Shown here: positions 17,152-34,558 of the stretch, piece after piece
Layout: every line of letters starts with the position of its first letter
Position numbering within the stretch: the stretch's first letter is position 1
Notes under the pieces: model-generated
What the model saw: the letters and a program-made list of their open reading frames with translations, nothing else
Databases searched by the model: none
What the model was told of the DNA's origin: nothing
Position numbers and translations under genes: made by a program
Source of the DNA: an uncultured Gemmatimonadales bacterium
GTDB taxonomy: Bacteria > Gemmatimonadota > Gemmatimonadetes > Gemmatimonadales > GWC2-71-9
NCBI GenBank assembly: GCA_963771275.1
Contig: CAVYSW010000003.1
Location: 736,001-800,000, forward strand
Direction of reading: 5' to 3'
DNA length: 64,000 nt

Positions 17152-17592
17152 ATGCCCGCTCGCCCGCTTCTGCTAACCACGATCCTCGCCGCCGCCTGCG
17201 CGACGACAGCTCCGCCGTCAGCCCGAGACCTGACCCCGGTGATCCAGACCATGCTCGACAGCTCGGCGGTCGCGTGGAACGCCGGGAACCTCGACGGGTT
17301 CATGTTCACCTACGCCCACGACTCGGCGACGGCGTTCATGACCCCGGGCGGCCCGGTCTATGGCTATGACGCGATCCGGGCGCGCTACGCGCCGCGGTTC
17401 GAGCCGGGCGGCGTGCGCGACTCCCTCACCTTCACCGACCTCGTCGTACGACCGCTCGACGCCGACTACGCGATCGCCACCGCGCGCTACGTGCTCAGCC
17501 GCGGCGACTCCGTGACGGCGACCGGGCCGTTCACCGTGGTGCTGCGGCGGCAGCGCGAGGGGTGGCGGATGATTCACGACCATACCACGTAG
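17152..17592 (+). CDS. NTF2-like/DUF4440 family lipoprotein
   Basis: LAAAC lipobox; AWNAGNLDGFM...GWRMIHDHT. Confidence 0.75.
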   Translation: MPARPLLLTTILAAACATTAPPSARDLTPVIQTMLDSSAVAWNAGNLDGFMFTYAHDSATAFMTPGGPVYGYDAIRARYAPRFEPGGVRDSLTFTDLVVRPLDADYAIATARYVLSRGDSVTATGPFTVVLRRQREGWRMIHDHTT

Positions 17593-17687
17593 GAGCGGCA
17601 GGGGGGGCAGGAGCGGCAGGAGGGGCGGGGGCAGAGATAAGGTATGGAACCGGGCACTAACCCCTGCCCCTCCCCCCTTCTGCCCCC
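17591..17687. repeat. Dispersed purine/pyrimidine inverted element built on the AGCGGCAGG unit (copy 2), between convergent genes
   Basis: GCAGGAGCGGCAGGAGGGGCGGGGGCAGAGA, spacer, CCCCTGCCCCTCCCCCCTTCTGCCCCC. Confidence 0.55.
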
Positions 17688-17688
17688 G

Positions 17689-18089
17689 TCACCGGCCGCG
17701 AATCGGCACGAGGGTGCGGCATCCGTACGCATCCGTCGCCGCCACAAGGGACACGCTCACACCCGCCGCCGCCGTGTCGTTGACCGGGAAGACTCGGCAC
17801 GTCTGGATCGGATACAAGGGCCCTCGCCATTCGGTACCGGTGAGCACCAGCAGCCCACCCGACCCGTCGGGGCGGGCATCGCGCACCACCGGATCGGAGC
17901 TGTCCGGCATCAGACCGGCGAGCGTGACGCGCGGGAACACCTCGCCGGTATCGCTGAACCACTGGAGCAGCGGGCGGCCGGGCCAGTCAAAGGGATCGCC
18001 CGGGGTAAGCACCAGCACGGCGTCCCGCCGAGGATCGAACCGGAAAATGCGCTCAAGTCTTCATGAACTACGGATGAAGTCCTACTCAT
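17689..18089 (-). CDS. Hypothetical protein, possibly frameshifted near 18055
   Basis: ATG at 18089 overlaps the upstream stop (MSRTSSVVHEDL); the longer coding-looking part (17689-18018) is in another frame. Confidence 0.3.
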
Positions 18090-19419: not shown

Positions 19420-19513
19420 GCATGGTCACCGTCGACTGGTGGTTTGGCGGCAGTCGCAGACCCTGGTGCAGCGTAACAACTACTACACAGATCAGGCAAC
19501 CGCGCCCCACTTC

Positions 19514-20820
19514 TTACCGTGACCCCCGCAGGAGTGCAGTCGGCAATGGCGGTATCATCGTGGCGAGGAACACCGGGATCCCCAAAGTGTCCGGGACCAC
19601 GAACCACGCGATGGAATCGCGAACGATGTCGGGCAGGCGGGCGTGGGGCACGCTCAAGGAGCCGCGATACCCCGTGCGGGCGTGATACAGATATCGGCGA
19701 TCGCACTGTCCCCTCCCCAGCGCAACGCCCAGGCAGTCGAATCCGACCCCAGCACGACATCGATGTACCGAGGCATGTACGTGGCCCACTTGCCCTCGAA
19801 CAGTTGGCGCTGGGACACCCCGAGAAACGGCAGTTTCTCGTCCGGGTCCAGGGTATGTCGCCGCAACTCGCGCTCGCGTTCTGCGCGGTCGACCTTCCTC
19901 GGCGCGAGCTTGACGGCAAAAGACGAGTAGAGTGCAGCCGACTCACCGAAGAACCACACTCCATATCGGTCGTAGGAGATGGCGACCAGGAGCCCGCCGT
20001 TCCCATCCCAAGTTCTGCCGTGACTGTTGAGGTAGGGGCGCTGTGCCGGGTACCCCCTCATGTCCAGTCCCGCGAACTGTACCCAGCTGTTCCGTAGAGC
20101 CAGAACGGTCGTCCAGGTGCTAGAGTCATCCGGGACCACGCCTTCGACCGACAGCATGGTGCGGACATGGGGATCAGATGAGTTGACGTCCCCCTTCCCG
20201 CTCCGGCTCGCGAGCAATCTGTCGTACGCGCGCGCTAGATGCACGTCGTAGGTAGCGACAAGCGGTGTCCTATAGGTCTGGAGCGTCGCTAGGTACTTGC
20301 CGTTTCGAGCGTACCACTGGATTCCACGACTATCGGCTAGCGCGAAGCCCTCGGGGAATGCGGCCAGGCGATTCCTCGCAGTTCCCCTCATCGCAAGACC
20401 GACGAAGTTCAACTCACCGGGACCAGGACCCTCTCGACCGAACGTGAGCCGGGTGACGCCCAGCGTATCCATTACGATCACCCGGCTGAGCATCATGTCG
20501 AGAACCGCCAGCAATTCCTCCTCTGGATGCCAGTCGATCCCGCCGATGAGGCTGAGAGGCTCGGATGACCTGACGTGCCAACGAATGCGCAATGGCGCTG
20601 CCAAAGGCACGACATGCTCACCATCCTGCGCCAGCAGGCTCCGCTCGCACATCACCTGCTCATCGGCTGATCGAGGGTCGGTTACTCGCTGGGCGCGCCG
20701 CCCCTCCGCTTCGCTCCTGCAACCAGCCAGCGAGACGCCGAGGAGGGTGCATAGGGCCAGAAGCAACACGGCCCCATGTCCGATGGTTGCGCACGATCCG
20801 GCACATCGGGAGCTTGTCAC
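19514..20820 (-). CDS. Divergent 6-bladed beta-propeller lipoprotein, paralogue 3, frameshifted near 19690
   Basis: LAGC lipobox; FGREGPGPGEL; the C-terminal YHARTGYRGSL...DTLGIP lies in the 19514-19789 frame; visibly more A/T-rich than the flanks. Confidence 0.6.
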
Positions 20821-21009
20821 TAGCTCACGCTCCCAGCGTGCATCGGCGACGACGGGTCGATACGGCGCAGCCCCGACATAGTTCAAGGTGTTCTTGGTGC
20901 CGAACGACCATCACTATTGATCGATCCTTCGACAGTTGTCCCACGTCGAGCAGCCGAGTTGGAGGTGATCTGCCCATCGACAAGGGGGCGAAGTCGCCGC
21001 GTAGAGAAA

Positions 21010-21250
21010 TCGGGACTTGCAGTGCGTGGCGCAACCCGCGACTCATCTATCGTCTGACCAAACAGCTTCCGCCGGGCCGAGTTGCGTCGCTTCCTCGATA
21101 GCTCCATTGGCAGCCTGGCCGAGATCGACGCCATGATGGACACGCTCGGCACGCTCTACGATCTCGACGCGTCGCTATGCACTGAGATCGAGTCCACTCG
21201 CCGCACCGTCAACGCTGGCCTATTCGCGCTCCTGCGCGGCCGGGGGCGCG
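21010..21250 (+). pseudogene. Degenerate four-helix-bundle (23S rRNA IVS-type) protein
   Basis: AW...IYRLTKQLP is followed out of frame by ELRRFLDSSIGSLAEID; the family's central segment is absent. Confidence 0.5.
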
Positions 21251-21251: not shown

Positions 21252-24200
21252 TCACGCGGGAGCGCCTGCCGCTCCGGCCGCGTCTGCCGCCCCTGCCGCT
21301 TCTGCCGCTCCGGCCGCTCCCGCCACCACCCCCGCGGCCACCCGCTCCCGCTCCGGCCCCCGCTCCAGCAGCGAGTAGATCGCCGGCGTCACGGTGAGCA
21401 CCAGCAGGGTCGAGCTCGACAGCCCGCCGATCAGCGACAGGCCCAGCGCATTCCAGATGTTCGAGTCCGCGTAGTCGCTGAAGAACACCAGCGGCAGCAG
21501 CCCGAAGATGGTGGTGAAGCTGGTCATCAGGATGGGTCGCACCCGTTCGATGGTTCCGCGAATGGTCGCCTCGCGGAGCGGGAGGCCGTACGAGCGGCGC
21601 AGCAGATTGATGTGGTCCACGAGGAGGATCGCGTTGTTCACCACGATGCCGCCCATCATGATCACGCCGATCACGGCTTCGCGGGTGAAGCTCGCGTCGG
21701 TGAAGTAGAAGATCAGGAACACGCCGATCAGCGCCATCGGGACGGTGAGCAGCACGCAGAGCGGCTGCCGCAGCGACTCGAACAGCGCCGCGGTCACCAT
21801 GAACACCAGCACGAGCGAGATGGCCAGCACGCCGTAGAGCTGCTTGGCTTCCTCCGTCGACCAGCGCCATTCCTGCTCGCCCTCGATGGTGTAGCCCTCG
21901 GGGAGCTGGGTCGCCGCGACCACCGCGTCGCGCACCCGGTCGCCCAGCTTGGTGGGGCCGCGGAACTCGTAGCTCACATAGCGCTGATACTGCTGGTTCT
22001 CCCGCTCGATGCGGCTCAGCACCTCCCGGTCGCCCACGGTCGCGACGTCGCCCAGGCGGACCCCCTGGCCGTCCGGCGTCTGGAGCAGCAGCTCGGGCAG
22101 CTCGTGGATGTCCATGTTCTCGTTGTTGGCGAGCTTGACGTCGAAGCGCAGCTCGTCGCCCGCGACCCGCACGTACCCCCGCCGTACGGTGCCCTGCACC
22201 GCCGAGGCGACCTGATAGACCACGTCTTCCGCGGTGAGCCCGTGCAGGCCCAGCCGCTGGCGGTCGATGGCCAGCACGAACTCGCTGGCCTTGTCGCTGG
22301 TGTACCAGCCCCCGGCCGAGTTTACGTCCACGTCCCGAATCCGCGAGAAGCGCTTGAGCCGTTGTCCCAGATCTTCGGCGATGTCCCGGACCGTCTCGTA
22401 GTTGTAGCCCAGGATCTTGATCGAGTAGTTGGGCGGACTGGCGCCGCCCCCGTAGAACGACGGCCCGTAGCCGTACACCCGCACCTCGGCCCCGCCGAAC
22501 AGGTTGCTGTAGGCCACCATCTGCTCCTTGATGGCCACCGGGATCTGGGTGTTTTCGAGGGAATCGGGGAACGTCACGCGGATGAAGGCGTACTGCGGCG
22601 CCACCTGGGTCACGTAGCGTTCGACCTCGGGGGTCTGTGCCAGCTTCTGCTCGAAGAAGCGGGCGAGCTCGTCGGTGCGCTCCAGCTCCTCGCCGCGCGG
22701 CAGATTGATCTGGATGCTGATGTAGGTATCCTGCCCGAACCACGACCGCCACAGCACCCCGCGCGTCACGTACTTGTTGAACACGTAGTACGACCCGCCG
22801 AGCCCCGCGAGCGCCAGGAGGATCGTGACCCACGGCCAGCGGAGGGTGAACCTGATCATCGTGGAGTAGACGCGGACGTAGATGGGGCGGGCGGGCGGGC
22901 CACCGGCGGCAGGAACGCTGGCCGCGGGAATGGTGCCACCGCCAGTCCGCCGTCCCGCACTTGCGCCGAGCGCCTTGGCCGCCAGCGCCGGAATGAACGT
23001 GAACGCCACGAACAGGCTCGCGAGCAGGCTCATCCCGACCACGATCGCGAGCGGGATGTAGTAGGCCCTGAGCTCACCCTGGAGGTACACGAACGGGATG
23101 AACACGATCACCGTGGTGAGCGTGGAAGCGAGCACCGCGAGCACGACCTCCTTGGCGCCTTCCTCGGCGGCGCCCACGACCCCGGTCGCCGTGCCCGCTC
23201 CGCGCTGGCCCGTCTGCCATTTTCGGTAGATGTTCTCCAGAACGACGATGGCGTTGTCGACGATCAAGCCGAATCCCATCGCCAGGCCCATCAGGGTCAG
23301 CACGTTGAGCGAGTAGCCGCCGAAGTAGATCAGGTTGAGCGTGATGAGGATCGAGAACGCGACCGTGGCGAACACGATGGCGGCGGAGCGGAACGACCGG
23401 AGGAACGCCAGCAGGATCACGAACACGACGGCCGCCGAGATGATGGCCCGCACGCGCAGGTCCTGAAGCTGCGTCTTGATGGCGTCGCTCTCGTCGGCAT
23501 CGAGCAGCACGCGCACGCCGGCCGGGTGGGTGGTCGAAAGCTCGGCCATCCTGCCCTTCACCCGGTCGGCGACGGCCACCGTGTTGACCCCCACCTCCTT
23601 GTGGATGGTGAACGCCACCGCCGGCATGCCGTCGATGCGGTAGAGGCTCTGGGGCTCCTCGTAGGTGTCATGCACGGTGGCCACGTCGCTCACGCGGACG
23701 ATGCGGCCGCGGTTGGTGAGCAGCGGCGCGCGCCGCACCTCATCCGGGGAGTCGGTGCGCTGCCGGATGGCCAGGGTCCGTTGGATGCCGTCCACCTCCA
23801 CCACGCCGGCGTCGGTCACGTACTCCAACTGCATGATCCGCTGCCAGATGACCCGGGGGAGGAGCCCCAGCGCGTTCACCTTGTCTTCGTCGAGCACGAT
23901 CTCGAGCACGCGCTCGCGGCCGCCGTACGCGTCGATGCCCGCGACGCCGTCGACTTGGAGCACTTCCGGGGTGACCTGCTCGTCGAGGTAGGCGCGCAGC
24001 GCTTCGAGCGTATAGGGACCGGTGAGGGTGTAGCGCAGGAATGGGCGCTGCTGCTGGCGGAACTCCTCGGGAACGTAGGGCGTGATGGTCGGCCCGATAA
24101 CGCCCTCGGGCAGATCCTCCTCGATCGCCGCGAGCCGCTCCGACAGCTCCAGGCGTGCGAAGTCCATGTCGGTGCCGCGCGCGAACTTGACCGTGATCTG

Positions 24201-24473
24201 CGCGCGGCCTGAACCCCGGACTTCGCTCGAGACGGACGAGATCTCGTCCACGCCTCGCACTTGCTGCACTGCGGCCTCGAGCGGCGCCGTGACGAACGCT
24301 TCCATCGTCTCGGGCGACGCCCGGCTCCAGTCGGCGGTCAGCGAAAGCTGGGGGAGCTCGGTGTTGGGCAACAGCTCGATGGGGATGCCGCGCCACGCCG
24401 CTACCCCCAGGAGGGCGACGGCGAAGTACGCCATCGAAACGGCGACGGGCCGGCGGATCGCGAGCCGGATCAC
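21252..24473 (-). CDS. RND efflux permease (AcrB/AcrD/AcrF family), subunit 2
   Basis: 1073 aa; IRRPVAV start, LIVDNAIVVLENI, FESLRQP, RVRPILMTS. Confidence 0.93.
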   Translation of the reverse strand: MIRLAIRRPVAVSMAYFAVALLGVAAWRGIPIELLPNTELPQLSLTADWSRASPETMEAFVTAPLEAAVQQVRGVDEISSVSSEVRGSGRAQITVKFARGTDMDFARLELSERLAAIEEDLPEGVIGPTITPYVPEEFRQQQRPFLRYTLTGPYTLEALRAYLDEQVTPEVLQVDGVAGIDAYGGRERVLEIVLDEDKVNALGLLPRVIWQRIMQLEYVTDAGVVEVDGIQRTLAIRQRTDSPDEVRRAPLLTNRGRIVRVSDVATVHDTYEEPQSLYRIDGMPAVAFTIHKEVGVNTVAVADRVKGRMAELSTTHPAGVRVLLDADESDAIKTQLQDLRVRAIISAAVVFVILLAFLRSFRSAAIVFATVAFSILITLNLIYFGGYSLNVLTLMGLAMGFGLIVDNAIVVLENIYRKWQTGQRGAGTATGVVGAAEEGAKEVVLAVLASTLTTVIVFIPFVYLQGELRAYYIPLAIVVGMSLLASLFVAFTFIPALAAKALGASAGRRTGGGTIPAASVPAAGGPPARPIYVRVYSTMIRFTLRWPWVTILLALAGLGGSYYVFNKYVTRGVLWRSWFGQDTYISIQINLPRGEELERTDELARFFEQKLAQTPEVERYVTQVAPQYAFIRVTFPDSLENTQIPVAIKEQMVAYSNLFGGAEVRVYGYGPSFYGGGASPPNYSIKILGYNYETVRDIAEDLGQRLKRFSRIRDVDVNSAGGWYTSDKASEFVLAIDRQRLGLHGLTAEDVVYQVASAVQGTVRRGYVRVAGDELRFDVKLANNENMDIHELPELLLQTPDGQGVRLGDVATVGDREVLSRIERENQQYQRYVSYEFRGPTKLGDRVRDAVVAATQLPEGYTIEGEQEWRWSTEEAKQLYGVLAISLVLVFMVTAALFESLRQPLCVLLTVPMALIGVFLIFYFTDASFTREAVIGVIMMGGIVVNNAILLVDHINLLRRSYGLPLREATIRGTIERVRPILMTSFTTIFGLLPLVFFSDYADSNIWNALGLSLIGGLSSSTLLVLTVTPAIYSLLERGPERERVAAGVVAGAAGAAEAAGAADAAGAAGAPA

Positions 24474-24500
24474 CGACGGCCGCTCCTGCCGCTCCTGCCG

Positions 24501-25757
24501 CTACTGCCGCCGCAATGCATACAGCCTCACATGCTCGACATCGAGCTCGTCGCGCCAGGTCCCGATGACGTAGTCACGGCCGATCTCCCGGACCGACAGG
24601 CCGGGCGGCGTCTCGACGGGGCCGAGCGCCAGCCCGTCCGGTCCGAACACGACCCAGTGGCGCCGCTCGTCACCCGGCCGGGCGACACCGCGCACCCAGA
24701 GGTCCCCCAGCGGGTCCGTCTTGAGGTCGTCGAACGCGGGGAACGTGCTGGGGAACGGAATGTCCTGGTACAGCCGCTCGGTGCTTTGGCGGGAGCCGGC
24801 ATCCGCACGCGCGAGCCGGTCCGCCTTGTGCCGCGCGATGTCGCCGCCGGTGACGGCGACCGGGGTCCACGCCAGGCGGATGATCTCCTCCGGCACGCCA
24901 CTCGCCGCGTACCGGGTGATCTCGTAGCGTGCGCTGTGTCCCGCGTAGAACCGGTGGCCCGCGATCACCACCAAGGTGTTCGTGCCGAACGGCAGGCTGC
25001 TGGCCATGGCGGAGTTGGTCCGACTCACGACGTACCACTCGGGTCCCGGGAACCGGCCAATCGAATCGCGCAGCGCGCCGGTCGAGTCGAACACGAGGAG
25101 CGGCATCGAGTCGCGCACGACCCGGGTCCCTTCGCCGCTTGGTCGAAACACGAAGCCGCGGTTGCACAGCCACGAGCCATCGGCAAAACGGCCAATGAGA
25201 AACGGCATCCCGGCCGGGAACTCCAGGGTGAAGGACCGGACGAACCGCCCCTCGGCGTCGAAGAGGGACACACGGCGGACGCTCCAGTCGTACGCGGCTA
25301 CCGTGTCGCCCGAGAGCGCGAGCACGCTTCCCAGTTGTTCGAACTCGCCCGGCCCGCCGCCCTTTCGACCGGCGGTCGTGAGATGCTCGCCCGTTGCGTC
25401 GAAGAACCGCAGCTCCTGGGAGCCGCCGTTCGCCACCACGATCCGGCCATCCGACAGGCGCACCGCGCCCCCGACCTGCGACAGCTGGTATGCCTCGTCG
25501 CCCTCGAGCACGCCGATGTCCACCCTCGGCTCGGCCTCCACGGTCCAGAGCGGCGGCGCGTTCGGGGCGAGCGCCGGATTCTCTACAATGCGAATCCCCG
25601 CCGAGTCCCGGATGACTGCCGCGGCCCCGCCCGCCTCCCCACCACAGCCGGATGCGAGAGAACAGAGAAGAGACGAGACGAGCAGGGCAGCGCTCACTCG
25701 CCGGTTCACTCGCTCCGTCTCTGCGCCACCTGCCGCTCCTGCGGTTGCGCTCATCAC
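24501..25757 (-). CDS. 6-bladed beta-propeller lipoprotein, paralogue 4, inside the RND operon
   Basis: LASGC lipobox; [33 protein letters not shown]. Confidence 0.82.
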   Translation of the reverse strand: MMSATAGAAGGAETERVNRRVSAALLVSSLLCSLASGCGGEAGGAAAVIRDSAGIRIVENPALAPNAPPLWTVEAEPRVDIGVLEGDEAYQLSQVGGAVRLSDGRIVVANGGSQELRFFDATGEHLTTAGRKGGGPGEFEQLGSVLALSGDTVAAYDWSVRRVSLFDAEGRFVRSFTLEFPAGMPFLIGRFADGSWLCNRGFVFRPSGEGTRVVRDSMPLLVFDSTGALRDSIGRFPGPEWYVVSRTNSAMASSLPFGTNTLVVIAGHRFYAGHSARYEITRYAASGVPEEIIRLAWTPVAVTGGDIARHKADRLARADAGSRQSTERLYQDIPFPSTFPAFDDLKTDPLGDLWVRGVARPGDERRHWVVFGPDGLALGPVETPPGLSVREIGRDYVIGTWRDELDVEHVRLYALRRQ

Positions 25758-28700
25758 GCACCCTCCGTCTTCGGCGCCATCCCCACGAGCCGGCGCAGTT
25801 TCTCCCGTCCCTGCTCGATCACCTCGTACGCCACCGGCACGACGATCAACGTCAGCGCGGTGGAGCTGCTGAGCCCACCGATCACGGCGAGCGCGAGCGG
25901 GGCGCGGAGATCGGCGCCGCGGCCGATGCCGAGCGCCATGGGCAGCAGGCCGAGCACCGTGGTGATCGTCGTCATCAGGATCGGACGCAGGCGCTGGCCC
26001 GCCGCCTCCTCGATCGCCGGCCGCAACGCGAGCCCCTCCGCGCGCCGGCGATTGATGTAGTCCACCATCACGATCGCGTTGTTCACGACGATGCCGACCA
26101 GGATCACGATGCCGATCAGGCTCATGGTGTTGAGCCCCCCCCCGCCGATCAGCAGCGCGGCCGAGGCGCCGACCGTGACCAGGGGCACGGACAGCATGAT
26201 GGTGAACGGGTGCACGAACGACTCGAACTGGGCTGCGAGGATCATGTAGACGAGCAGCAGCGCCATGCCGAACGCGAACGCGAGATCCCGGAAGCTCCGC
26301 GCGCGCTCCTCGCTGGCGCCCCCGATCTCGTAGCGCACGCCGTGCGGCGCCTGCTCGCCAGCCAGCGCCCGGCGGATATCGGTCACCGCCTGGTCCAGCC
26401 CGCCGTGCGCGACGTCCGCGAACACCTCCACGACGCGGCCCTGATCGCGGCGGCGCACCTCGGCGGGCCCCAGCACCTCATGGGTCACCACCAGCTCGCG
26501 CAGTGGCACGCCGTTGATCGACAGCGTCTGGAGCGTCTCCAGCGAGCGCCGCTCGCTCTCGGGCAGGCGGACCAGCACGGGCACCTTCTCGTCGAAATCC
26601 ACGTACTGGGTCGCGACCGCGCCGCGCATGTACTGCTCCACCGTCTGCGCGATGAGCGCCGGCTCGATCCCGTAGGCGGCCGCCTTGTCACGTGCGATCT
26701 CTACCCGGATCTCGGGCTGGCCTTCTTCGGCGCGGAGCCGCACGTTGCGCAGCGTCGACACACCCTGGAGCCGCCGCTCCACCTGGCGGGCGTAGCCCCA
26801 GATCGCGTCGAGATCCTCCCCGCGCACCCGCACGGAGATGTCCGCCTCCTCGCCGCCCAGCAGGCGGCCCAGCGCGGTCGCGGTCCCGGTTTCCACCGTG
26901 ATCGTCCCCGGCGGGAACTCGGCGAGGCTGGATGCAAGCCGGTCGAGCACGGGTGCCGTCTTGGCGCCTGCGGCGAGCGTCACCTCGATGCGCGCCGTGT
27001 TGAGCCCGCTCTCCTCTTCCTCCACTCCGGCCACGGCGCTCTGGCGGCCGACGCGGGTGAACACGGTCGCCACGTCCGGGTCGCCCCGCGCCGCCTGCTC
27101 GAGCCGGGTCGCGGCCGTGGTGGTCTCCTCGATCGGCGTCCCGCGCGCCAGCTCCAGCGCGATGGTGAACTCGCCCTGGTCCACCTTGGGGAGCACGGCC
27201 CGATCGAGCCGGAGCCCCAGCGCGAGCCCTACCAGCAGCAGCACGCCGGCGGCCGCCATCACGCGGCCGGGGACGCGCAGCGCGCCCGCAATCACCCCCG
27301 CGTACCACGCGGTGAACCGCGCGTAGTGGCGGTCGAACCACTGGAAGAGCGGGCTCGTGACGACGCGGTACACGGTGGGCACCCACCCGAACAGCGCGCC
27401 CGTCACCGCCCGCAGCACGCGCACCGGCAGCGTGGCGGGCCGCCGCTGGTCGCCCGCGGCCGACCAGCGCGCCGCCATCGCCGGCAGCGCGGTCACCGCC
27501 ACCAGGAGGCTCGCGAGCAGCGCGAACGTGACGGCGAGCGACAGGTCGCGGAACAGCTCGCCGGCCACGCCCTCGACGTAGATGATCGGTCCGAACACCG
27601 CGATCGTCGTGAGCGTCGACGCGGTGATCGCGTTGAGGACTTCATCCGTCCCACGGGCCGCGGCGTCCGGCTGCGACAGCCCCTTGCCGCGCAGGCGGAA
27701 GATGTTCTCCAGCACGACGATCGAGTTGTCCACCAGCATGCCCACGCCGAGCGCGAGCCCGCCCAGGCTCATGATGTTGAGCGAGACCTTGGCCAGGTCC
27801 ATCAGGGCGAACGTGGCGACCACCGAGACCGGAATCGAGAGCGAGATCGCCACCGGATAGCGGGCGTCGTGCAGGAACAGAAACAGCACGAGGAACGCGA
27901 GCAGCCCTCCGAAGATGAGCGACGAAACGACGTTGCCGATCGCCTCGCTGATGAACCCGGCCTGCGCGGTGGCGACGTCGAGGTGGGTGTCGGGGTACTG
28001 GGCCCGCACCTGGCGCAGCACCTTCTCGACCTCCTGGGTCACCCGCACGGTGTTGGCCCCGGCCTCCTTGAACAGCAGCAGGCCGACCGACTCCTGTCCG
28101 TTGTAGCGCGCCACCGACTCGCGCTCCTTGAAGCCGTCGTCCACGGCGGCGACGTCCTTGAGCAACACCAGCCCGCCGGCGCCGGTGCGTCGCTGTCCGA
28201 GCGGCACGGCGCCGATCTCGTCGACCGACTGGAACTCCCCCAGGGTGCGGAGCGCGTAGCGATAGCGGCCCCGCCGGATCGTGCCCCCCGGCGCGCTCTG
28301 GTTGGCGGCGTCGAGCGCCCGCACCACGTCGTCCACCGTGAAGCCGTAGGTGTCGAGCAGCCGGGGATTCACCTCGACGTGGATCTCGCGCTCCAGGCCG
28401 CCGGCCAGCGCCGCCTCGGCAATGCCGTCGATCTGCTCGAGCCGCCGCTTGAAGACGTTCTCCGCGAGATCCTTGAGCGCGGCCAGGTCCGTCGTGCCGG
28501 ACACTGAGAGCGCCATGATCGGATCGGCGGTGGGATCGGTGCGCAGCACGACGGGGCGGGTCGCGAGCTCGGGCAGCCCGTCGCGGATGTTGTCCAGCTG
28601 CTCGCGCACGTTGAGCGCCGCGAAGTCCATGTCGGTGCCCCACGTAAAGCGAATCGTGACCAGCGACACGCCCTCGCGCGACACGCTCTCGACGCGCTCG

Positions 28701-28930
28701 ACGCCCGGCACCCGGCCCGCCACCTGCTCGATCCGCTCCGTGACGAACCGCTCGACCTCCGCCGGCCCCACGTCCGGATAGCGGGTGTAGACGACGAGCC
28801 GCGGGTAGGCGATGGAGGGAAGCAGGTCGATCGGCAGCCGCACGTAAGACAGCACGCCAAGAAAGCCGACCGCGGCGACCAGCATCGCCACGGCCACCGG
28901 CCGGGCGACGGAGATGCGCGCGACGCTCAC
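25754..28930 (-). CDS. RND efflux permease (AcrB/AcrD/AcrF family), subunit 1
   Basis: 1058 aa; VARPVAV, MLVDNSIVVLENI, QFESFVHP, RLRPILMTT. Confidence 0.93.
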   Translation of the reverse strand: MSVARISVARPVAVAMLVAAVGFLGVLSYVRLPIDLLPSIAYPRLVVYTRYPDVGPAEVERFVTERIEQVAGRVPGVERVESVSREGVSLVTIRFTWGTDMDFAALNVREQLDNIRDGLPELATRPVVLRTDPTADPIMALSVSGTTDLAALKDLAENVFKRRLEQIDGIAEAALAGGLEREIHVEVNPRLLDTYGFTVDDVVRALDAANQSAPGGTIRRGRYRYALRTLGEFQSVDEIGAVPLGQRRTGAGGLVLLKDVAAVDDGFKERESVARYNGQESVGLLLFKEAGANTVRVTQEVEKVLRQVRAQYPDTHLDVATAQAGFISEAIGNVVSSLIFGGLLAFLVLFLFLHDARYPVAISLSIPVSVVATFALMDLAKVSLNIMSLGGLALGVGMLVDNSIVVLENIFRLRGKGLSQPDAAARGTDEVLNAITASTLTTIAVFGPIIYVEGVAGELFRDLSLAVTFALLASLLVAVTALPAMAARWSAAGDQRRPATLPVRVLRAVTGALFGWVPTVYRVVTSPLFQWFDRHYARFTAWYAGVIAGALRVPGRVMAAAGVLLLVGLALGLRLDRAVLPKVDQGEFTIALELARGTPIEETTTAATRLEQAARGDPDVATVFTRVGRQSAVAGVEEEESGLNTARIEVTLAAGAKTAPVLDRLASSLAEFPPGTITVETGTATALGRLLGGEEADISVRVRGEDLDAIWGYARQVERRLQGVSTLRNVRLRAEEGQPEIRVEIARDKAAAYGIEPALIAQTVEQYMRGAVATQYVDFDEKVPVLVRLPESERRSLETLQTLSINGVPLRELVVTHEVLGPAEVRRRDQGRVVEVFADVAHGGLDQAVTDIRRALAGEQAPHGVRYEIGGASEERARSFRDLAFAFGMALLLVYMILAAQFESFVHPFTIMLSVPLVTVGASAALLIGGGGLNTMSLIGIVILVGIVVNNAIVMVDYINRRRAEGLALRPAIEEAAGQRLRPILMTTITTVLGLLPMALGIGRGADLRAPLALAVIGGLSSSTALTLIVVPVAYEVIEQGREKLRRLVGMAPKTEGA

Positions 28931-30297
28931 GGCCGCACGGGCCGGCCGGCCCGCTCCTCCAGCGCCACGACGGCTTCCGCGAACGCGTAGCGCGCGTTGG
29001 TGAGCTGGCGTTCCTCCTGCGAAGCGCGGTCGATCAGGATCTGGAGGTTGGCGAACGAGATCGCGCCGATGGCGTAGCGCTCGCGCGCCAGCCGCAACCG
29101 CTCGGAGCTGTAGCCCGAGGCGCGCTGCGCCAGGCTCAAGGCCTGGTAGGCGTTCTGCACGTCGATCACCGCCGAGCGGATGTCCTGCTCCAGCCCCAGC
29201 TGCCCAGCGCGGAGCGACTCATCCGCGTTCCGCGCGTCGGCGTCGGCCGCGGCCACCTGGGCCGAGGTCTGAAACCCTGTGAACAGGGGGAGGTTCACGC
29301 TCAGGCTGAAGCTGAAGGACCGGTCCCGCGGGTTGAGCTTGAAGAACGCGCTGTAGGCGTCGTCGTTCGTGAAGCGCTGGAACGACGCGCCGAGCTGGAC
29401 CGTCGGCCAGCGCCCGCCGCTGGCAACGGACGCCCGGAGGTGCGCCGCGTCGGCCGACGCCGCGAGGCGCTGAATCTGGGGGTGGTCCGTGAGCGCGAGC
29501 GCGACGAGCGAATCCGGGCGCAGCGCCGCCGGGTCCCACGCGGGCGGCAGCTCCCCCACGACCGCGAACTCGATCGGCTCCGTAAGGCCCAGCTGCTCAC
29601 GCAGCGAGACGACCGCCTTCTGGGCGTCGCCTCGCGTCCGGGCGAGCTGCAGCTCCGCGTTGGCGACGTCCGCCTCGGCGCCGAGCACATCTTCCCGGTT
29701 GGCTGCCGCCACGCGAAACAGGCGCTCGGTATTGTCACGCTGTTCCTGGGACGATGCGAGCAGGCGCTCTTCCAGCACGATCAGCTGGCTGGTACGCAGG
29801 GCTTCGTAGAAGCGGCGCGTCGTCTCTGCATCCACCTGGCTCCGCGTCGCCCAGCGGGTCGCGTCAGCCGCATCCTGGTTGGCGCGGGCGGCCCGCAGCG
29901 TCTTGAAGTTGCGCAGGCCGTCGAACAGAGTGAGCCCAGCCGAGAGGCTCTGGCTGGCGCTGCTACCCTTGTAGCTGATTACCGTGTCCCGGCCGAGGGG
30001 TTGGCCGAAGATGTCCAGCGCGGTCACACGCCGCGAGTCGTTGCCGGAAAATGACATCCGCGCGTCGAGCGACGGCATGAACGCGCCCCAGCCGGCGCGC
30101 ACCTGCGCCCCTTGGGCCCGGTAGGTGTTCACGGCCTGCAGGTACTGCGGGTTCCGCTCCCGCGCGATCGCGATCGCGTCGTCCAGGGTGAGGCGCGCCG
30201 GAACGGCCGTGCGCGCCTGGGCCGCCACTGGCGGCGCGAACCCTGCCGCCCCTGCCGCCCCTGCCACCACTGCCACCACTGCCGCCGCGATCCTCAT
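28927..30297 (-). CDS. TolC-family outer membrane factor
   Basis: Signal peptide; LTLDDAIAIARERNP, LTLFDG, LPLFTG, ERYAIG repeats; ATGA overlap with the MFP stop. Confidence 0.9.
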   Translation of the reverse strand: MRIAAAVVAVVAGAAGAAGFAPPVAAQARTAVPARLTLDDAIAIARERNPQYLQAVNTYRAQGAQVRAGWGAFMPSLDARMSFSGNDSRRVTALDIFGQPLGRDTVISYKGSSASQSLSAGLTLFDGLRNFKTLRAARANQDAADATRWATRSQVDAETTRRFYEALRTSQLIVLEERLLASSQEQRDNTERLFRVAAANREDVLGAEADVANAELQLARTRGDAQKAVVSLREQLGLTEPIEFAVVGELPPAWDPAALRPDSLVALALTDHPQIQRLAASADAAHLRASVASGGRWPTVQLGASFQRFTNDDAYSAFFKLNPRDRSFSFSLSVNLPLFTGFQTSAQVAAADADARNADESLRAGQLGLEQDIRSAVIDVQNAYQALSLAQRASGYSSERLRLARERYAIGAISFANLQILIDRASQEERQLTNARYAFAEAVVALEERAGRPVRP

Positions 30298-31484
30298 CTC
30301 GGCCTCCCGCCGGCGGCCTGGACGTTCTCGACCAGCCGGACCCGGGCATCGTGGATCAGCGTGTAGTGTCCGTCGGTGAGCACGATCTCGCCGGGCTGGA
30401 CCATCTCGGTCTCCGGGTTCGCGACGATCTCGACCAGCGAGTCGTTGGCGAGCCCGGTCGTCACGTAGCGCCACTTGGCGAGTCCGGTGGTCGCCCCCTC
30501 ACCGTCGCCCTGGAACACGAACAACATCGTCCGCCGGTCGCGCTCCAACACCGCGGCGCGCGGCACGAGAATTCGGTTGGGGAACTTCCGGGCTTCGAGC
30601 GCCACCCGCGCGTACATGCCCGGCAGGATGCGGCTCTCCGAGTTGGGAATGGTGACGGTCACGTTCGCGGTGCGGGTGTCCTGCGCCACCACGGGGTTGA
30701 TGGTCTCGATGCGCCCGGCGAACTCCTCGCCGGGGAACGCGGCAAACGAGACGAACGCACGCCGTCCGGCCGCGAGCAATCCGACTTCGCTCTCAAGCAC
30801 CTGCACCACGACCCGAATGGGGTTCAGATCCACCACGGTCGCCAGCTCGTCCCCCACCCGCACCGTCTGGCCCGGCATCACCTTGACCGACGCGGCGCGG
30901 CCCGCAAACGGCGCCGTCACCCGGGTGCGCTGCAGCTGGAGGTCGGCCTCGCGCACGCTGACTTCGGCTTCGGCGAGGCCGCTCTTGGCCCGCGCCACCC
31001 GCGCCCGCTCGACGCGCACCGCCGAGTCGGCGATCTGGTCGTCGAACAAGGTGAGCTCACGGAACGAGGCCTGCGTCCGGGCGAGGTTCGCCTCCGCCCG
31101 CGCGAGCCCCAGCGCGTACTCCGTCGTGTCGATCACGACGAGCAGCTGCCCCGCCACCACCCGGTCGTTGTCGCGCACCGTCACGTCCATCACCCGGCCG
31201 GCGACCTGGGCCAGGATGCGCGAGTCGCGCTGAGCGGCCGCCTGGGCCGCCGCTGACACGGAGATGACCAGCGTGTCCCGCTCGACCTTGGCCCCCTCCA
31301 CCGGGATCGCGACATCCGTCGAGAAGGTCTCGGTCGCCGAGACATCCGGACGGCGGGACGTGCTGTCGGTGGTGGAGCCGTCGCCGGACGCCTTGCCGGC
31401 GAACAGCCAGAAGTAGGCGCCCGTGCCGGCGGCGAGCACGACGAGGCCGCCGGCGGCGGAGAGCAGGAGTCGAGTACGTGTCAT
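30294..31484 (-). CDS. RND periplasmic adaptor (membrane fusion protein)
   Basis: N-terminal TM; lipoyl halves VAGRV...GQLLV and VTAPFAG...GQTV; ILPGMYA. Confidence 0.92.
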   Translation of the reverse strand: MTRTRLLLSAAGGLVVLAAGTGAYFWLFAGKASGDGSTTDSTSRRPDVSATETFSTDVAIPVEGAKVERDTLVISVSAAAQAAAQRDSRILAQVAGRVMDVTVRDNDRVVAGQLLVVIDTTEYALGLARAEANLARTQASFRELTLFDDQIADSAVRVERARVARAKSGLAEAEVSVREADLQLQRTRVTAPFAGRAASVKVMPGQTVRVGDELATVVDLNPIRVVVQVLESEVGLLAAGRRAFVSFAAFPGEEFAGRIETINPVVAQDTRTANVTVTIPNSESRILPGMYARVALEARKFPNRILVPRAAVLERDRRTMLFVFQGDGEGATTGLAKWRYVTTGLANDSLVEIVANPETEMVQPGEIVLTDGHYTLIHDARVRLVENVQAAGGRPR

Positions 31485-31630
31485 GGTCAACGCCGCGTGG
31501 GAGCCCAGGTCGGAGCAACGGGAAAGCAACGAATCGATGTAATGTGCCCGGCCGCCCCGCGAATGTCACGCCTGCGGAGCGGCTGGGCTACAGATGCACG
31601 ATGTGCCCTAACGGGTTGCAGGGCGGCGCG

Positions 31631-32692
31631 TCACCGCGCCGAGCGGCCTGGCTCGAGCCGGAAGACCCTGATCCCGTCCATGGTGAGCCGGTAGAACCGC
31701 CCGCGGTGAATCACGCCGCGGCCCCCAGCCAGTTGGGGGTCGGTCCCGGACGCCCAACGCAGCGACCGACTGTGATAGGTCCTGGCGTCCACCAACAGGC
31801 CGAACACGCCGTCTATCGCGGGAAAGAGCAGGAGCAAGCGGTCGTCGTCCGTCGCGGAGAACGACGTGATCTTCGGGAGCGCGTTTCGTCCGGAGCCGCC
31901 AAAATCGCGCTCGACCAGCGCGGCGCGCTTAGTCAGTCCCTCGAGCACCGCGTCCGGCAGGCGCCGGGCCGTGAGCCGTCGGCCGTCGGGGCTGAACTTC
32001 ACGAGAGCCCCGAGGTGAGGGTCGTAGACGTGCACCAGTCCGCCATCCGTCACGGCTAGGTCGACCTCCCCGCCGGGCAGGCGCGGGGCCGACAGGACAG
32101 CGTCCGGGTACAGGTCCCAAGGGCGCTCGGCGAACGGTCGCGCGATCCCGTCACGATCGATGGCCAGCAGGTAGTTGCGCTGGTCGTAGGCGCTGACGTA
32201 GAGCGTCCCGTCCGGTCCGTACGCGACCTGGGTGAAGCCGTTGGGCAGCAGGACGTTGCGGCGGAACCTGCCTTCCGCCCCGAACACCGAGATCCTCCCG
32301 TTGTTCACCTCCGTGACGGCGTACTCACCTTGCCAGACCGCCAGCCCGTAGATGCCACGAAGCTCTCCGGGGCCGGAGCCCGGCCGGCCGATGAACTGGA
32401 TCGGGTGAAACGCCGAGTCGAAGACCACGAGCCGCGAGTTCGCAACCTCCAGTACGAGCATTCGATCGTCCTGGAACCGCACATCTATCGCGCGCGCGAA
32501 TCCCCCGCCGTCAGGTTCGGGGGAGATCGGCCGCTCAAGCGCGACCTCGTGGGCAATGAGCGGCCTCGGGTCTGAATCGGCCTCAGGAATCGTGACAGCG
32601 GATGTACCACGCGAGCAGGCAACGAGGAGCGCCGCCGCGGAGACGCGGGCCGCGATTCGGAGACTGGATGGCAGCGAATGACGACGTACCAT
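31631..32692 (-). CDS. 6-bladed beta-propeller lipoprotein, paralogue 5, directly downstream of the small secreted protein
   Basis: RBS GAGAGGA; LLVAC lipobox; IGRPGSGPGEL. Confidence 0.78.
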   Translation of the reverse strand: MVRRHSLPSSLRIAARVSAAALLVACSRGTSAVTIPEADSDPRPLIAHEVALERPISPEPDGGGFARAIDVRFQDDRMLVLEVANSRLVVFDSAFHPIQFIGRPGSGPGELRGIYGLAVWQGEYAVTEVNNGRISVFGAEGRFRRNVLLPNGFTQVAYGPDGTLYVSAYDQRNYLLAIDRDGIARPFAERPWDLYPDAVLSAPRLPGGEVDLAVTDGGLVHVYDPHLGALVKFSPDGRRLTARRLPDAVLEGLTKRAALVERDFGGSGRNALPKITSFSATDDDRLLLLFPAIDGVFGLLVDARTYHSRSLRWASGTDPQLAGGRGVIHRGRFYRLTMDGIRVFRLEPGRSAR

Positions 32693-32722
32693 GTGATCCT
32701 CTCGACACGATTGGTTGGCAGC

Positions 32723-32760
32723 GGGAGCGGGCCCGCCGCGCGACTCGGCGGACCCGTCCC
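32723..32760 (-). terminator. Strong GC stem-loop without U-tract (partial terminator or mRNA stabiliser)
   Basis: On the + strand GGGAGCGGGCCCGCCG / loop CGCGACT / CGGCGGACCCGTCCC, about 20 nt after the stop of 32782-33108. Confidence 0.6.
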
Positions 32761-32781
32761 GGTTTCAGCATCTGTGGACCT

Positions 32782-33108
32782 TCAACGGATGACTCTGCCG
32801 GTGCGGCAGTCCACTTTGACGACCTCCTGGGTCACCTGGTTCTGGTAGTAGCCCACGTGGAACTGCTCCGAGGTGGTGCCTGTCACGCTGGCGTTGATGC
32901 CGCACGAGCCGCCTCCCGCCCCGAGCGTCCCGCTGGTCGTCTCGGTCACCAGCGACTGGGATTGTAGCTGGTACGGTTGGCCGGTCTGCCCGCCGACCGC
33001 GTCTGCCGGGCAGTCGCTCGGGTCCGCCAGGAGCGGGCCACCGCTCAGTGCGAAGAGTGCAATCAGAAACGTGCACGTCCTGATGAAGGTTCCGGTCTTC
33101 TTCAGCAT
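32782..33108 (-). CDS. Small Sec-secreted Ser/Thr/Gly-rich Cys-containing protein (candidate exported peptide/toxin)
   Basis: Strong RBS GGAGGG before ATG; signal peptide MLKK...FLIALFALSGGPLLA|D; 80-aa mature part with 3 Cys; lacks the Arg/Pro bias of GC shadow ORFs. Confidence 0.8.
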   Translation of the reverse strand: MLKKTGTFIRTCTFLIALFALSGGPLLADPSDCPADAVGGQTGQPYQLQSQSLVTETTSGTLGAGGGSCGINASVTGTTSEQFHVGYYQNQVTQEVVKVDCRTGRVIR

Positions 33109-33300
33109 CTATCCCTCCACGCGCCTTGAGCCGGCGCGAACAAGTGGTTCGAACCCGGCCGCGATCGTCGGGCCGGGGAGATACGATCGGGCCATCCGCC
33201 CGCACGGCCATAGGCGAAACGCGGCGGCCGGTGTCGTTTTCACGCCAAGCGAGCGGGCCTGCGACCTTCGGGGCGTCGGGTGCATCTTTCACCGGTGGGT

Positions 33301-33357
33301 TGGCCAATAGCCGATAGCCGACAGCGGTTTCGGTTTCACTCTTCACTTTTCACTCCA
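33301..33357 (+). repeat. Heptamer arrays (TRGCCGA)n plus (TTTCACT)n upstream of paralogue 6
   Basis: tggccaa tagccga tagccga cagcggt ... ttcact cttcact tttcact. Confidence 0.65.
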
Positions 33358-33365
33358 TTCCCACA

Positions 33366-34499
33366 ATGCGCTCACTCCTGACCACTCTCCTCGTCGCGGC
33401 GCTCAGTGCGGACGCCGCCGCGCAGACCCGACCGATCCCGCTCGGCAAGCCGGATGCAACGTTCCCGGAGCCGGTGAGCTCGCCCGTGGGATTCCGCGCC
33501 CTGAGCGACGGCCGCCTGCTCGTGGCCGACAACATCGAGTCGACCGTGTCGCTGCTCGACTTCCGGACCGGCCAGGCGACGGCCGTCGGCCGGCAGGGCG
33601 AAGGCCCAGGGGAGTTCGGCATGCCGGGGGCGCTCTATGCCGGCGCCGCCGACACCACGTACATGATGGACATGGGGAACCGGCGCCTGCTGGTGATCAC
33701 CGCGGACGGCACGATTAGCAGCAGCACGGTTCCCCTGTTCCATCAATCCGGCTGGCCGATCCTCCCCCGCGGCGTCGACGCCAAGGGACGGATCTATTTC
33801 GATCTGGGCGGCATCGCCATGCCGGGACTGAACGAGATGGTCACGTCCGGCCGGGCCCCGCTGATCCGCTGGGATCGCGCCGCCGGCCAAATGGACACCC
33901 TCGCCTACGTCCAGTTCCCGCCGCAGCCGGCGGCGGGGCCGGGACAGGTCCGCGTCTCGATCGGCGGTGGCGCCTACCAGCCGCGCGACGACTGGGCGGT
34001 GCAGCCGGACGGCCGGGTCGGGCTCGCGCGGGCGACGGCGTACCATGTCGAGTGGTACGGCACCGGAGCACCGGTGATCGGACCGCACGTCGACTACACG
34101 CCCGTCAAGATCGGCAGCGCGGAGAAGAACGCCTGGGCGGATCAGGCGGCGGCGCGCGGCCTCGCGGTCGAGATCGTGAACGGCCAGCGGCGCACGACTC
34201 GGCTCCCCCGCCCGAACGTCGATCAGCAGCAATGGCCCGAGGTGATGCCCCCGTTCACGGGCTCGCGAGCCGTCCTCGCCGCGCCGAGCGGGGAGCTGTG
34301 GGTCCGGCGGGCACAGCCCGCGGGCAGCAAGACGACCGTCTACGACGTGTTCGACGCCGCCGGCCGCCTCGCGCGGCAAGCCTCGCTGGACGGGGACCGC
34401 ACCGTGTTGGGCTTTGGGCCGGGAGCGGTATACGTGGCGCGGAGCGACGAAGACGATCTGATGTGGATCGAGCGGTATCGTTGGCCGGTTAGCCGTTAG
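33366..34499 (+). CDS. Secreted 6-bladed beta-propeller protein, paralogue 6
   Basis: Signal peptide ...AAAQ; VGRQGEGPGEF; YDVFDAAG; DEDDLMWIERYR. Confidence 0.8.
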   Translation: MRSLLTTLLVAALSADAAAQTRPIPLGKPDATFPEPVSSPVGFRALSDGRLLVADNIESTVSLLDFRTGQATAVGRQGEGPGEFGMPGALYAGAADTTYMMDMGNRRLLVITADGTISSSTVPLFHQSGWPILPRGVDAKGRIYFDLGGIAMPGLNEMVTSGRAPLIRWDRAAGQMDTLAYVQFPPQPAAGPGQVRVSIGGGAYQPRDDWAVQPDGRVGLARATAYHVEWYGTGAPVIGPHVDYTPVKIGSAEKNAWADQAAARGLAVEIVNGQRRTTRLPRPNVDQQQWPEVMPPFTGSRAVLAAPSGELWVRRAQPAGSKTTVYDVFDAAGRLARQASLDGDRTVLGFGPGAVYVARSDEDDLMWIERYRWPVSR

Positions 34500-34556
34500 C
34501 CGTTGGCCGTTGGCCGACGGTCGTTCCTTTTCACTTTTCACTTTTCACATTCACTC
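34489..34556 (+). repeat. Heptamer arrays (TTRGCCG)x4 plus (TTTTCAC)x3 upstream of paralogue 7
   Basis: ttagccg ttagccg ttggccg ttggccg ... ttttcac ttttcac ttttcac attcac. Confidence 0.75.
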
Positions 34557-34558
34557 AT

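What the first reader, a model, noticed from the sequence alone, without database searches (positions are those of the whole stretch)
21252..33108. Candidate new system: small Sec-secreted peptide, beta-propeller lipoproteins and a two-permease RND exporter
Seen: one minus-strand run reads small secreted protein (108 aa), stem-loop, propeller lipoprotein, MFP, TolC, RND1, propeller lipoprotein, RND2. MFP/TolC/RND1/propeller are joined by 4-nt start/stop overlaps. No modifying enzyme, C39-peptidase ABC transporter or local regulator is present. Known: RND-MFP-TolC pumps capture substrates from the periplasm, and bacteriocin loci pair a small precursor with an immunity gene and an exporter. Inference: a two-step secretion route (Sec to the periplasm, then RND/TolC across the outer membrane) for a folded mini-protein, with propellers acting as chaperone, loader or immunity factor. 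From memory, this recalls the uncharacterised small secreted protein (NVEALA-type) plus TolB-like propeller neighbourhoods of Bacteroidota; I could not verify that here.
Basis: partly seen in the sequence, partly recalled or inferred. Interest (0 to 1): 0.88.

Follow-up and report, generated by a model that had tools for sequence, protein, structure and literature searches.

The report
Hairpin mini-protein and propeller partner cassette
The tight unit here is a small secreted hairpin-shaped protein of an unnamed family plus its own propeller-shaped partner lipoprotein, a pair that behaves like a bacterial weapon and its antidote; the efflux pump beside it may export the small protein, but it usually occurs without the pair.

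Summary
The gene order, 4-nt overlaps and stem-loop are real, but this is two modules, not one dedicated system.

(1) Cassette. The 108-aa ORF belongs to an unnamed Gemmatimonadota family: signal peptide, two-cysteine cap, hypervariable amphipathic beta-hairpin. In 47 genome loci, all 38 full-length copies lie beside one monophyletic clade of six-bladed propeller lipoproteins (33 directly upstream). 11 of 51 such propellers are orphans, a toxin-immunity-like asymmetry. Complex prediction gives weak support only.

(2) Pump. An old two-permease RND-MFP-TolC operon with a non-canonical proton relay. It carries the small gene in 4 of 76 pump loci, and only 5 of 47 cassette loci have pump genes nearby. 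Generic propellers do track it within the window's order (27 of 32 loci, against about 4% background). All 35 genomes with the partner propeller encode it somewhere, one in pieces.

Best reading: a secreted membrane-active mini-protein with a cognate immunity or chaperone lipoprotein. Export through this pump (Sec then TolC, as for enterotoxin STII via MacAB) is plausible, about 35-40%, but not shown. Not NVEALA family. No function was tested.

The parts
33120..33138 (-). Invariant 6-bp leader hairpin directly 5' of the GGAG ribosome-binding site of the small gene
   Evidence: Stem identical in 10 of 10 close homologues; no covariation, so the structure is not proven
32782..33108 (-). Small secreted hairpin protein, 108 aa: signal 1-28, mature 80 aa (8.3 kDa, pI 4.65); C33-C101 cap, hairpin strands 45-64 and 73-90, extra C69 in close kin
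   Evidence: no family hit
32722..32761 (-). GC-rich stem-loop without U-tract between small gene and propeller-1; probable mRNA-stabilising or attenuating element (inferred)
   Evidence: hairpin at this position in 14 of 14 spacers
31631..32692 (-). Propeller-1: six-bladed NHL/DUF5128-like lipoprotein (lipobox Cys26), dedicated partner clade of the small protein
   Evidence: AF2 pLDDT 89.5; best match NHL domain Z 24.5, rmsd 3.2 over 261 residues; clade 17 of 17, SH-like 97; Cys26 nearly invariant
30294..31484 (-). Periplasmic adaptor (MFP); ATG at 31484 likelier than TTG at 31529
   Evidence: TIGR01730 above cut-off
28927..30297 (-). TolC-family outer-membrane channel
   Evidence: PF02321
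25754..28930 (-). RND permease 1; TM4 has Asp-Asn; this copy lacks the TM10 Asp and Lys that most orthologues keep
24501..25757 (-). Propeller-2: DUF5128-like lipoprotein of a general multi-copy group, optional inside the pump operon
   Evidence: inside the operon in 9 of 50 close loci; related copies elsewhere in the genome
21252..24473 (-). RND permease 2 (about 30% identical to permease 1); TM4 Asp-Asn, no TM10 Lys

Best explanation
Two modules lie side by side.

Module A (small gene, hairpin RNA, propeller-1) is a self-contained cassette of toxin-immunity type. The small protein crosses the inner membrane by Sec (inferred from the signal peptide). It closes a C33-C101 disulfide that staples a small beta cap (inferred from invariance and the model). 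It displays a long, variable amphipathic beta-hairpin that most likely inserts into a rival cell's membrane and oligomerises into a pore (inferred; about 50%). Propeller-1 is a membrane-anchored partner that binds the mini-protein, probably at the cap, and keeps it harmless or unassembled in the producer (pairing shown genomically; binding weakly predicted; immunity inferred).

Module B is an old heteromeric RND-MFP-TolC pump that collects cargo from the periplasm. Within the window's order it keeps changing propeller genes around it. The cassette sits at the pump's 5' end in two genera of the window's family and, with a decayed pump copy, once in another family. The pump is a plausible exit for the mini-protein (about 35-40%), in cis or in trans, but it is not dedicated to it.
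For: Pairing: in 47 genome loci, 33 of 38 full-length small ORFs are directly followed by a propeller-1-clade gene; the other 5 follow one within about 0.6 kb. 10 of 10 metagenome loci agree (partly redundant). In 26 pump-free loci from 9 genera, these two are the only families shared by more than two genera within 5 kb. The partners form one clade among 44 propellers.

Asymmetry: 11 of 51 partner genes have no small gene upstream, 3 are tandem extras, and small-gene remnants or IS elements lie upstream of several. Orphan immunity genes are typical of toxin systems (established knowledge, recalled).

Fast change: against G001, mature protein 59% and propeller-1 51%, versus MFP 70% and RNDs 75-78%. 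In genus g101, hairpin 0.41, cap 0.62, propeller 0.65 mean identity.

Hairpin: 21-42 residues, 60% Thr/Gly/Val/Ser, hydrophobic alternation above shuffled in 34 of 40 (mean z 1.7); short variants have Phe/Gly tips.

Complex prediction, weak support: 0.49 against best control 0.02. The mark was reached by 116 of 157 solved and 2 of 215 mismatched pairs, but at 0.60 or under by only 18 of the 157 and by both mismatches. Runs agree in at least 59% of contacts; partner pLDDT at least 66.

Pump mostly separate.
Against: No killing, pore or immunity was tested. No fold or sequence link to a known pore-former was obtained. Strand alternation fits any amphipathic hairpin. Mature proteins are mostly acidic (pI under 6 in 35 of 40), unlike cationic membrane-lytic peptides, so a receptor would be needed. 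One divergent member (L175) has almost no hairpin and could not span a membrane. The model is modest (pLDDT 70, pTM 0.50, hairpin tip under 50). Propeller-2 diverges as fast as propeller-1 (55% vs 51%), so speed alone does not mark immunity. The small-propeller distance correlation (rho 0.72 overall, 0.58 within g101) is expected from shared ancestry. All 35 genomes with the partner propeller encode the pump, so obligatory export in trans is not excluded.
Confidence: 0.42

Rival explanations
1. One reading: a two-step secretion system. The RND pair, MFP and TolC are the obligatory exporter of small disulfide-bonded proteins, and each propeller is a cargo-specific loader; cassettes elsewhere use the pump in trans.
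For: The cassette abuts the MFP gene in the window, G001, G002, G109 and G405, and in 6 of 6 metagenome contigs long enough to tell. In G173 (another family) it precedes a decayed MFP that is 86-90% identical to MFPs of that genus. 34 of 35 partner-positive genomes have the close pump; the last has it in three pieces. In the six families where the close pump is rare (20 of 283 genomes, counted by hand), both cassette genomes have it adjacent. Propellers lie inside or within 1.5 kb in 15 of 17 close and 12 of 15 complete distant loci of the window's order, against 4.3% of random blocks and 0 of 8 other RND loci in G000. One RND2-propeller fusion exists. Unrelated Cys-rich secreted ORFs lie at 5 pump loci. 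The proton relay is non-canonical. STII precedent (PMC5985334).
Against: Small gene in 4 of 76 pump loci; pump genes in 5 of 47 cassette loci. Propellers lie near only 6 of 33 pump loci outside the order. The pump is in 86 of 100 f6+f7 genomes anyway, so co-occurrence says little there. TolC is in only 2 of 15 complete distant loci. G362 keeps an intact cassette beside a broken RND2 (assembly error possible). An 8-kDa folded cargo through an RND porter domain has no precedent that I found.
Confidence: 0.25
2. The small protein is a structural subunit of the producer's own envelope: hairpins assemble into a surface beta-fibre or a small outer-membrane barrel, with propeller-1 as nucleator, anchor or chaperone.
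For: An isolated 20-residue-per-strand hairpin must pack on something. The conserved 3' RNA hairpin suggests excess small-gene message. Second, short-hairpin paralogues in 5 loci could be minor subunits.
Against: Patchy presence (24 of 401 genomes), frequent decay and orphan propellers suit a dispensable conflict module. No dedicated outer-membrane assembly gene among shared neighbours.
Confidence: 0.15
3. The small protein is a strain-specific signal or identity tag, and propeller-1 is its receptor or sink.
For: A conserved cap with a hypervariable display loop, a cognate lipoprotein partner, and an acidic rather than cationic mature part.
Against: No regulator or kinase is shared among 26 pump-free loci. 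The propeller has no signalling domain. The variable part keeps a membrane-like alternation.
Confidence: 0.1
4. The neighbourhood is chance: a periplasm-retained protein pair with a housekeeping role has landed in a propeller-rich region next to an ordinary multidrug pump.
For: Eight propeller genes lie within 20 kb of the window and about 23 in the genome. Cassettes elsewhere sit by recF-gyrB-like or recN-like genes (names read from the sequences).
Against: Same-strand position directly before the MFP gene in two families; the propeller-pump link is far above background within the order.
Confidence: 0.08

Closest known systems
E. coli heat-stable enterotoxin STII exported by MacAB-TolC (PMC5985334, PMC8277102; passages read)
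   Same: A small signal-peptide protein crosses by Sec, gains disulfides in the periplasm and leaves through a tripartite TolC pump. This is the route proposed here.
   Different: There the motor is an ABC transporter, not an RND heteromer; the passages read name no dedicated propeller partner; export here is untested.
MdtABC-TolC two-permease RND pump (PMC4462101; passages read)
   Same: Two different permeases in one operon with one adaptor; MdtB is the best PDB match of both permeases (E 1.7e-100 and 7.1e-74); unequal subunits.
   Different: Far below the MdtB/MdtC family cut-offs (391-394 bits vs 1584/1774 for RND1). TM4 Asp-Asn instead of Asp-Asp, no TM10 Lys at the usual place. Separate from this genome's own Asp-Asp RNDs in the tree.
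Bacteriocin/toxin-immunity gene pairs with lipoprotein immunity, and beta-pore-forming toxin stems (recalled)
   Same: Secreted variable protein followed by a cognate lipoprotein; orphan partner genes; Thr/Ser/Gly/Val-rich amphipathic hairpin.
   Different: No sequence or fold match obtained; about 80 residues, much smaller than aerolysin-type toxins; acidic; partner is an NHL-type propeller.
NVEALA protein plus TolB-like/6-bladed propeller neighbourhoods of Bacteroidota (recalled; no paper found)
   Same: Small signal-peptide ORFs beside DUF5128-type propellers; DUF5128 rings in the Bacteroides thetaiotaomicron control genome.
   Different: No NVEALA motif or Pfam hit in 40 members; no TolB-like hit in 22 partners. 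I could not examine Bacteroidota loci.
DUF1302/DUF1329/COG4447-propeller/HAE3-RND modules (named in earlier finding e1-4944210; not read further)
   Same: An RND gene travelling with a beta-propeller gene.
   Different: The permeases here are AcrB-like with MFP and TolC, not HAE3 (57.5 and 34.4 bits vs cut-off 351.9).

Membership tests
NVEALA proteins (Pfam) | NVEALA motif or profile match after the N-terminal hydrophobic segment | tested here: not met
   0 of 40 members hit at E<=0.05; motif absent from the alignment
DUF5128 / NHL six-bladed propellers | Profile match | tested here: inconclusive
   Propeller-1 22.4 bits vs cut-off 22.9; propeller-2 25.5 bits, above it; 7 of 22 partners hit at E<=0.001
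DUF5128 / NHL six-bladed propellers | Six-bladed NHL-like fold | tested here: met
   Propeller-1 model pLDDT 89.5; Z 24.5, rmsd 3.2, 261 aligned to an NHL domain
TolB-like 6-blade propeller (Pfam) | Profile match | tested here: not met
   0 of 22 partners at E<=0.001
RND-MFP-TolC tripartite pump | AcrB-family permease, adaptor and outer-membrane factor in one operon | tested here: met
RND-MFP-TolC tripartite pump | Canonical proton relay (two TM4 Asp, TM10 Lys; AcrB residues recalled) | tested here: not met
   TM4 Asp-Asn in 46 of 47 RND1 and 48 of 48 RND2 of the close clade; most RND1 carry a shifted TM10 Asp and Lys that the window's copy lacks
MdtBC | Equivalog score for MdtB or MdtC | tested here: not met
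MdtBC | Works as a heterotrimer | not testable with these tools
   Needs purification
Double-glycine bacteriocin / type I secretion | C39-peptidase ABC transporter and double-glycine leader instead of a Sec signal | tested here: not met
   No such transporter among scanned or shared neighbours; leader is a hydrophobic signal ending in Ala
Toxin-immunity pair | Strict adjacency to a cognate partner, with orphan partners | tested here: met
   38 of 38 beside a partner; 11 of 51 partners orphan
Toxin-immunity pair | Direct binding | tested here: inconclusive
   Weak support, 0.49 vs 0.02; 116 of 157 solved and 2 of 215 mismatched pairs reach the mark, 18 of 157 and both mismatches at 0.60 or under
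Toxin-immunity pair | Killing and protection | not testable with these tools
   Needs assays
Beta-pore-forming proteins | Amphipathic hairpin long enough to span a membrane | tested here: inconclusive
   21-42 residues, alternating in 34 of 40; nearly absent in one member
Beta-pore-forming proteins | Fold homology to a known pore-former | tested here: inconclusive
   Best Z 4.2, to SH3/Tudor-like barrels, on a modest model
STII-type two-step export | Export from the periplasm depends on the pump | not testable with these tools
   Genomic linkage mixed

The most novel reading that the evidence does not exclude
The RND pair is a protein-exporting motor: a heteromer with a rearranged proton relay that takes folded, disulfide-stapled mini-proteins from interchangeable propeller lipoprotein adaptors and ejects them through TolC. 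The cargo here is an approximately 80-residue beta-barrel pore-former, and the many DUF5128-type propellers of Gemmatimonadota form a library of cargo-specific chaperones and immunity factors for unrelated small peptides.
Probability: 0.2. Interest if true: 0.9.

Novelty: new variant of a known kind. Interest (0 to 1): 0.68.

Why it matters
Neither the small-protein family nor the partner clade has a Pfam family of its own or a paper that my ten searches found; sources that name members call them hypothetical. The pair gives a first concrete, testable partner for a DUF5128-type propeller, a family present in dozens of copies in these genomes. If the hairpin forms pores, it would be a very small beta-pore-former with a swappable membrane segment, and a candidate weapon of an almost uncultured phylum, including Ca. 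Palauibacter. If the pump exports it, RND transporters would join MacB-type ABC transporters as motors of two-step protein secretion.

Tried and rejected
No match for the small protein: Pfam and NCBIfam; ESM Atlas with two members; Foldseek against PDB and viral models, no E<=0.001; VIA-align best Z 4.2; PDB sequence profile best E 0.67; viral contigs; plasmids, searched with RND2 and propeller-1. These blanks do not prove a new fold.

The idea that the small protein is a detached propeller blade got no support (hhalign probability 1.7%). Two long hits of the representative search (P0030, P0033) were dropped as repeat artefacts. The Lentisphaeraceae hit covers 37 residues and was ignored.

No sigma-70 promoter or U-tract terminator was found in 30800-33600. 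A leader model matched only the window and close kin. No RNA holder was listed. Profile A5 found no small gene in four incomplete congeners and G007 (0 of 5, 73-91% complete).

My notes said 36 of 36 small genes precede a partner and that 7 metagenome contigs reach the MFP. The wider profile gives 33 of 38 directly followed and a recount gives 6; the report uses the corrected figures.

A random-window background from other genomes could not be fetched, so the propeller background comes from G000 alone. It is likely higher in f6/f7, where first-look candidates number about 70-310 against about 30-100 in f1.

Paper searches: NVEALA 0 papers and DUF5128 0; searches listed nothing on this system (listings only); two searches were for background. 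Passages read: PMC7159879 (other propeller systems, not relevant), PMC10469786 (no mention of propellers, bacteriocins or toxins in the main text), PMC8277102, PMC5985334, PMC4462101. No supplements were opened; those of Gemmatimonadota genome papers could list these genes. Bacteroidota loci were not examined.
Full report
Observation. The run is as described: small ORF 32782-33108, propeller-1 31631-32692, MFP, TolC, RND1, propeller-2 24501-25757 and RND2, all on the minus strand, with three 4-nt overlaps. Family scans confirm the pump parts and give DUF5128/NHL for the propellers; the small ORF matches nothing. The window is G000:C3:736001-800000. Named relatives are Gemmatimonadales and Ca. 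Palauibacter records, so the organism is placed in Gemmatimonadota by inference. The genome holds about 23 propeller ORFs, eight of them in this part of the window, so adjacency needed controls.

The small protein. It has 18 close homologues; a wider profile finds 98 clusters. Across 40 diverse members only C33, G86, Y88 and C101 are invariant. AlphaFold gives a signal helix, a small beta cap and a long hairpin (45-64, 73-90) at pLDDT 70, with no convincing fold match. The hairpin is 21-42 residues long, 60% Thr/Gly/Val/Ser, and alternates hydrophobic and polar residues more than shuffles in 34 of 40 members. Within genus g101 it averages 0.41 identity against 0.62 for the cap. Mature proteins are mostly acidic (35 of 40). 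A GC stem-loop without U-tract follows the stop codon in 14 of 14 spacers folded; these 14 were chosen for having a clear spacer.

The partner. A profile search of 401 genomes of the phylum found the small gene in 24; a profile of the downstream propellers found 35. I fetched wide loci for the matches. In 47 genome loci, 33 of 38 full-length small ORFs are directly followed by a propeller-1-clade gene and the other 5 follow one. Of 51 partner genes or fragments, 37 have a small gene or remnant upstream, 3 are tandem extras and 11 are orphans, two of them behind IS elements. Seventeen partners form one clade among 44 propellers (FastTree, SH-like 97). In 26 pump-free loci of 9 genera no other family is shared by more than two genera within 5 kb. 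Propeller-1 models as an NHL-type six-bladed propeller with a helical insert. Complex prediction gave weak support: 0.49 against 0.02 for the best of 3 controls. That mark was reached by 116 of 157 solved and 2 of 215 mismatched pairs, but at 0.60 or under by only 18 of the 157 and by both mismatches; contacts agreed in at least 59%, partner pLDDT at least 66.

The pump. RND2 matches 181 of 401 genomes at E<=1e-140, in a close clade (47% identity or more, about 119 genomes by hand count) and a distant one (about 35%). RND1 and RND2 each form their own clade spanning both, so the pair is old. I examined 50 close and 26 distant loci. The small gene is in 4 and 0 of them; two of the four were fetched through the small gene. 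A propeller lies inside or within 1.5 kb in 15 of 17 close loci of the window's order, 6 of 33 outside it, and 12 of 15 complete distant loci (15 of all 26). The background in G000 is 4.3% of random blocks and 0 of 8 other RND loci. Propeller-2 sits between the permeases in only 9 of 50. The permeases have Asp-Asn in TM4 and no Lys at the usual TM10 place; most RND1 carry a shifted Asp and Lys, which the window's copy lacks, and distant RND2 lacks the TM4 Asp. Unequal subunits recall MdtBC (PMC4462101, passages), but the family cut-offs are not met.

Cassette and pump together. Pump genes occur in 5 of 47 cassette loci: G001, G002, G109, G405 (small gene frameshifted) and G173, where a decayed MFP is 86-90% identical to those of its own genus. 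Six of six long enough metagenome contigs continue into the MFP, but they are close kin and partly redundant. Congener G004 lacks the cassette at this site. All 35 partner-positive genomes encode the close pump, G362 in pieces, but so do 86 of 100 genomes of the two richest families. Unrelated Cys-rich secreted ORFs precede propellers at 5 pump loci (crude detection, 25 loci screened, no matched control). The data therefore reject a pump dedicated to this protein and leave open a shared exit route.

Mechanism. Shown: the cassette, the dedicated partner clade, orphan partners, the variable amphipathic hairpin, and the pump's independence. Inferred: Sec export and disulfide formation; binding of the cap by propeller-1; membrane insertion and oligomerisation in a rival cell, with the lipoprotein as immunity factor or anti-assembly chaperone (0.42 overall). 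Its route has a precedent in STII, which goes Sec, DsbA, MacAB-TolC (PMC5985334 and PMC8277102, passages), but I found none for an RND motor. Structural-subunit, signal and chance readings get 0.15, 0.10 and 0.08. Against the favoured reading stand the acidic charge, one nearly hairpin-less member and the lack of any homology to known pore-formers.

Novelty. Searches for NVEALA and DUF5128 returned no paper, and six other searches listed none on this system; most subscription journals are not covered. Earlier findings of this scan held no look-alike by place or sequence; the word search returned other systems. NVEALA and TolB-like membership failed, although the analogy with Bacteroidota neighbourhoods is untested. 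I rate this a new variant of a known kind, an undescribed secreted-protein and partner-lipoprotein pair attached here to an unusual RND heteromer, with interest 0.68. The bolder reading, an RND-driven mini-protein secretion system with propeller adaptors, has probability 0.2 and interest 0.9.

Noticed in passing
L008:13315-17847 (+): RND2 is fused in frame to a propeller domain (1,510 aa) through a basic, hydrophobic linker ending in a lipobox-like Cys; one case only, so a sequence error is possible. It resembles the internal-lipoprotein-signal fusion of earlier finding e1-1092411.
   Followed up: partly
L018:569-829 (-), L186:13908-14033 (-), L189:4775-5236 (+), L198:13252-13581 (+), L113:4700-4882 (+): Mutually unrelated small signal-peptide, Cys-rich ORFs upstream of propellers near this pump family; no Pfam hit.
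   Followed up: partly
window 25754-28930, RND1 residues about 946-957: The window's RND1 has lost the TM10 Asp and Lys kept by at least 39 of 47 close orthologues, congeners included; distant-clade RND2 lacks the TM4 Asp in 25 of 26.
   Followed up: partly
L079, L082, L083, L084, L163 (downstream of the partner propeller): A second small-family gene with a shorter Phe/Gly-rich hairpin follows the propeller, giving small-propeller-small; possibly a two-component system.
   Followed up: partly
window 21058-21240 (+): C-terminal remnant of a four-helix-bundle (23S rRNA IVP) gene at the RND2 3' end; the 101-aa homologue in L003 hits PF05635.
   Followed up: yes
window 15380-20886 (-) and 33366-35713 (+): Five more propeller genes; 19654-20886 has low GC3 (0.72) and no Pfam hit and looks degenerate or recently acquired. 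The divergent pair at 33366-35713 has a homologue upstream of the pump in many loci.
   Followed up: partly
window 33110-33260 (-): Conserved spaced motifs in the divergent promoter region of 9 of 9 close homologues; possibly promoter or regulator sites.
   Followed up: partly
G362:C1:367948-376164: Both permeases of the close-clade pump are in pieces, RND2 with a gap of about 1.8 kb, while the cassette is intact elsewhere in this genome.
   Followed up: no
G000:C3:1801442-1808597 and C3:848019-852597: Propeller genes alternate with small toxin-antitoxin-like or nucleotidyltransferase-like gene pairs and IS elements (read from sequence, not scanned).
   Followed up: no
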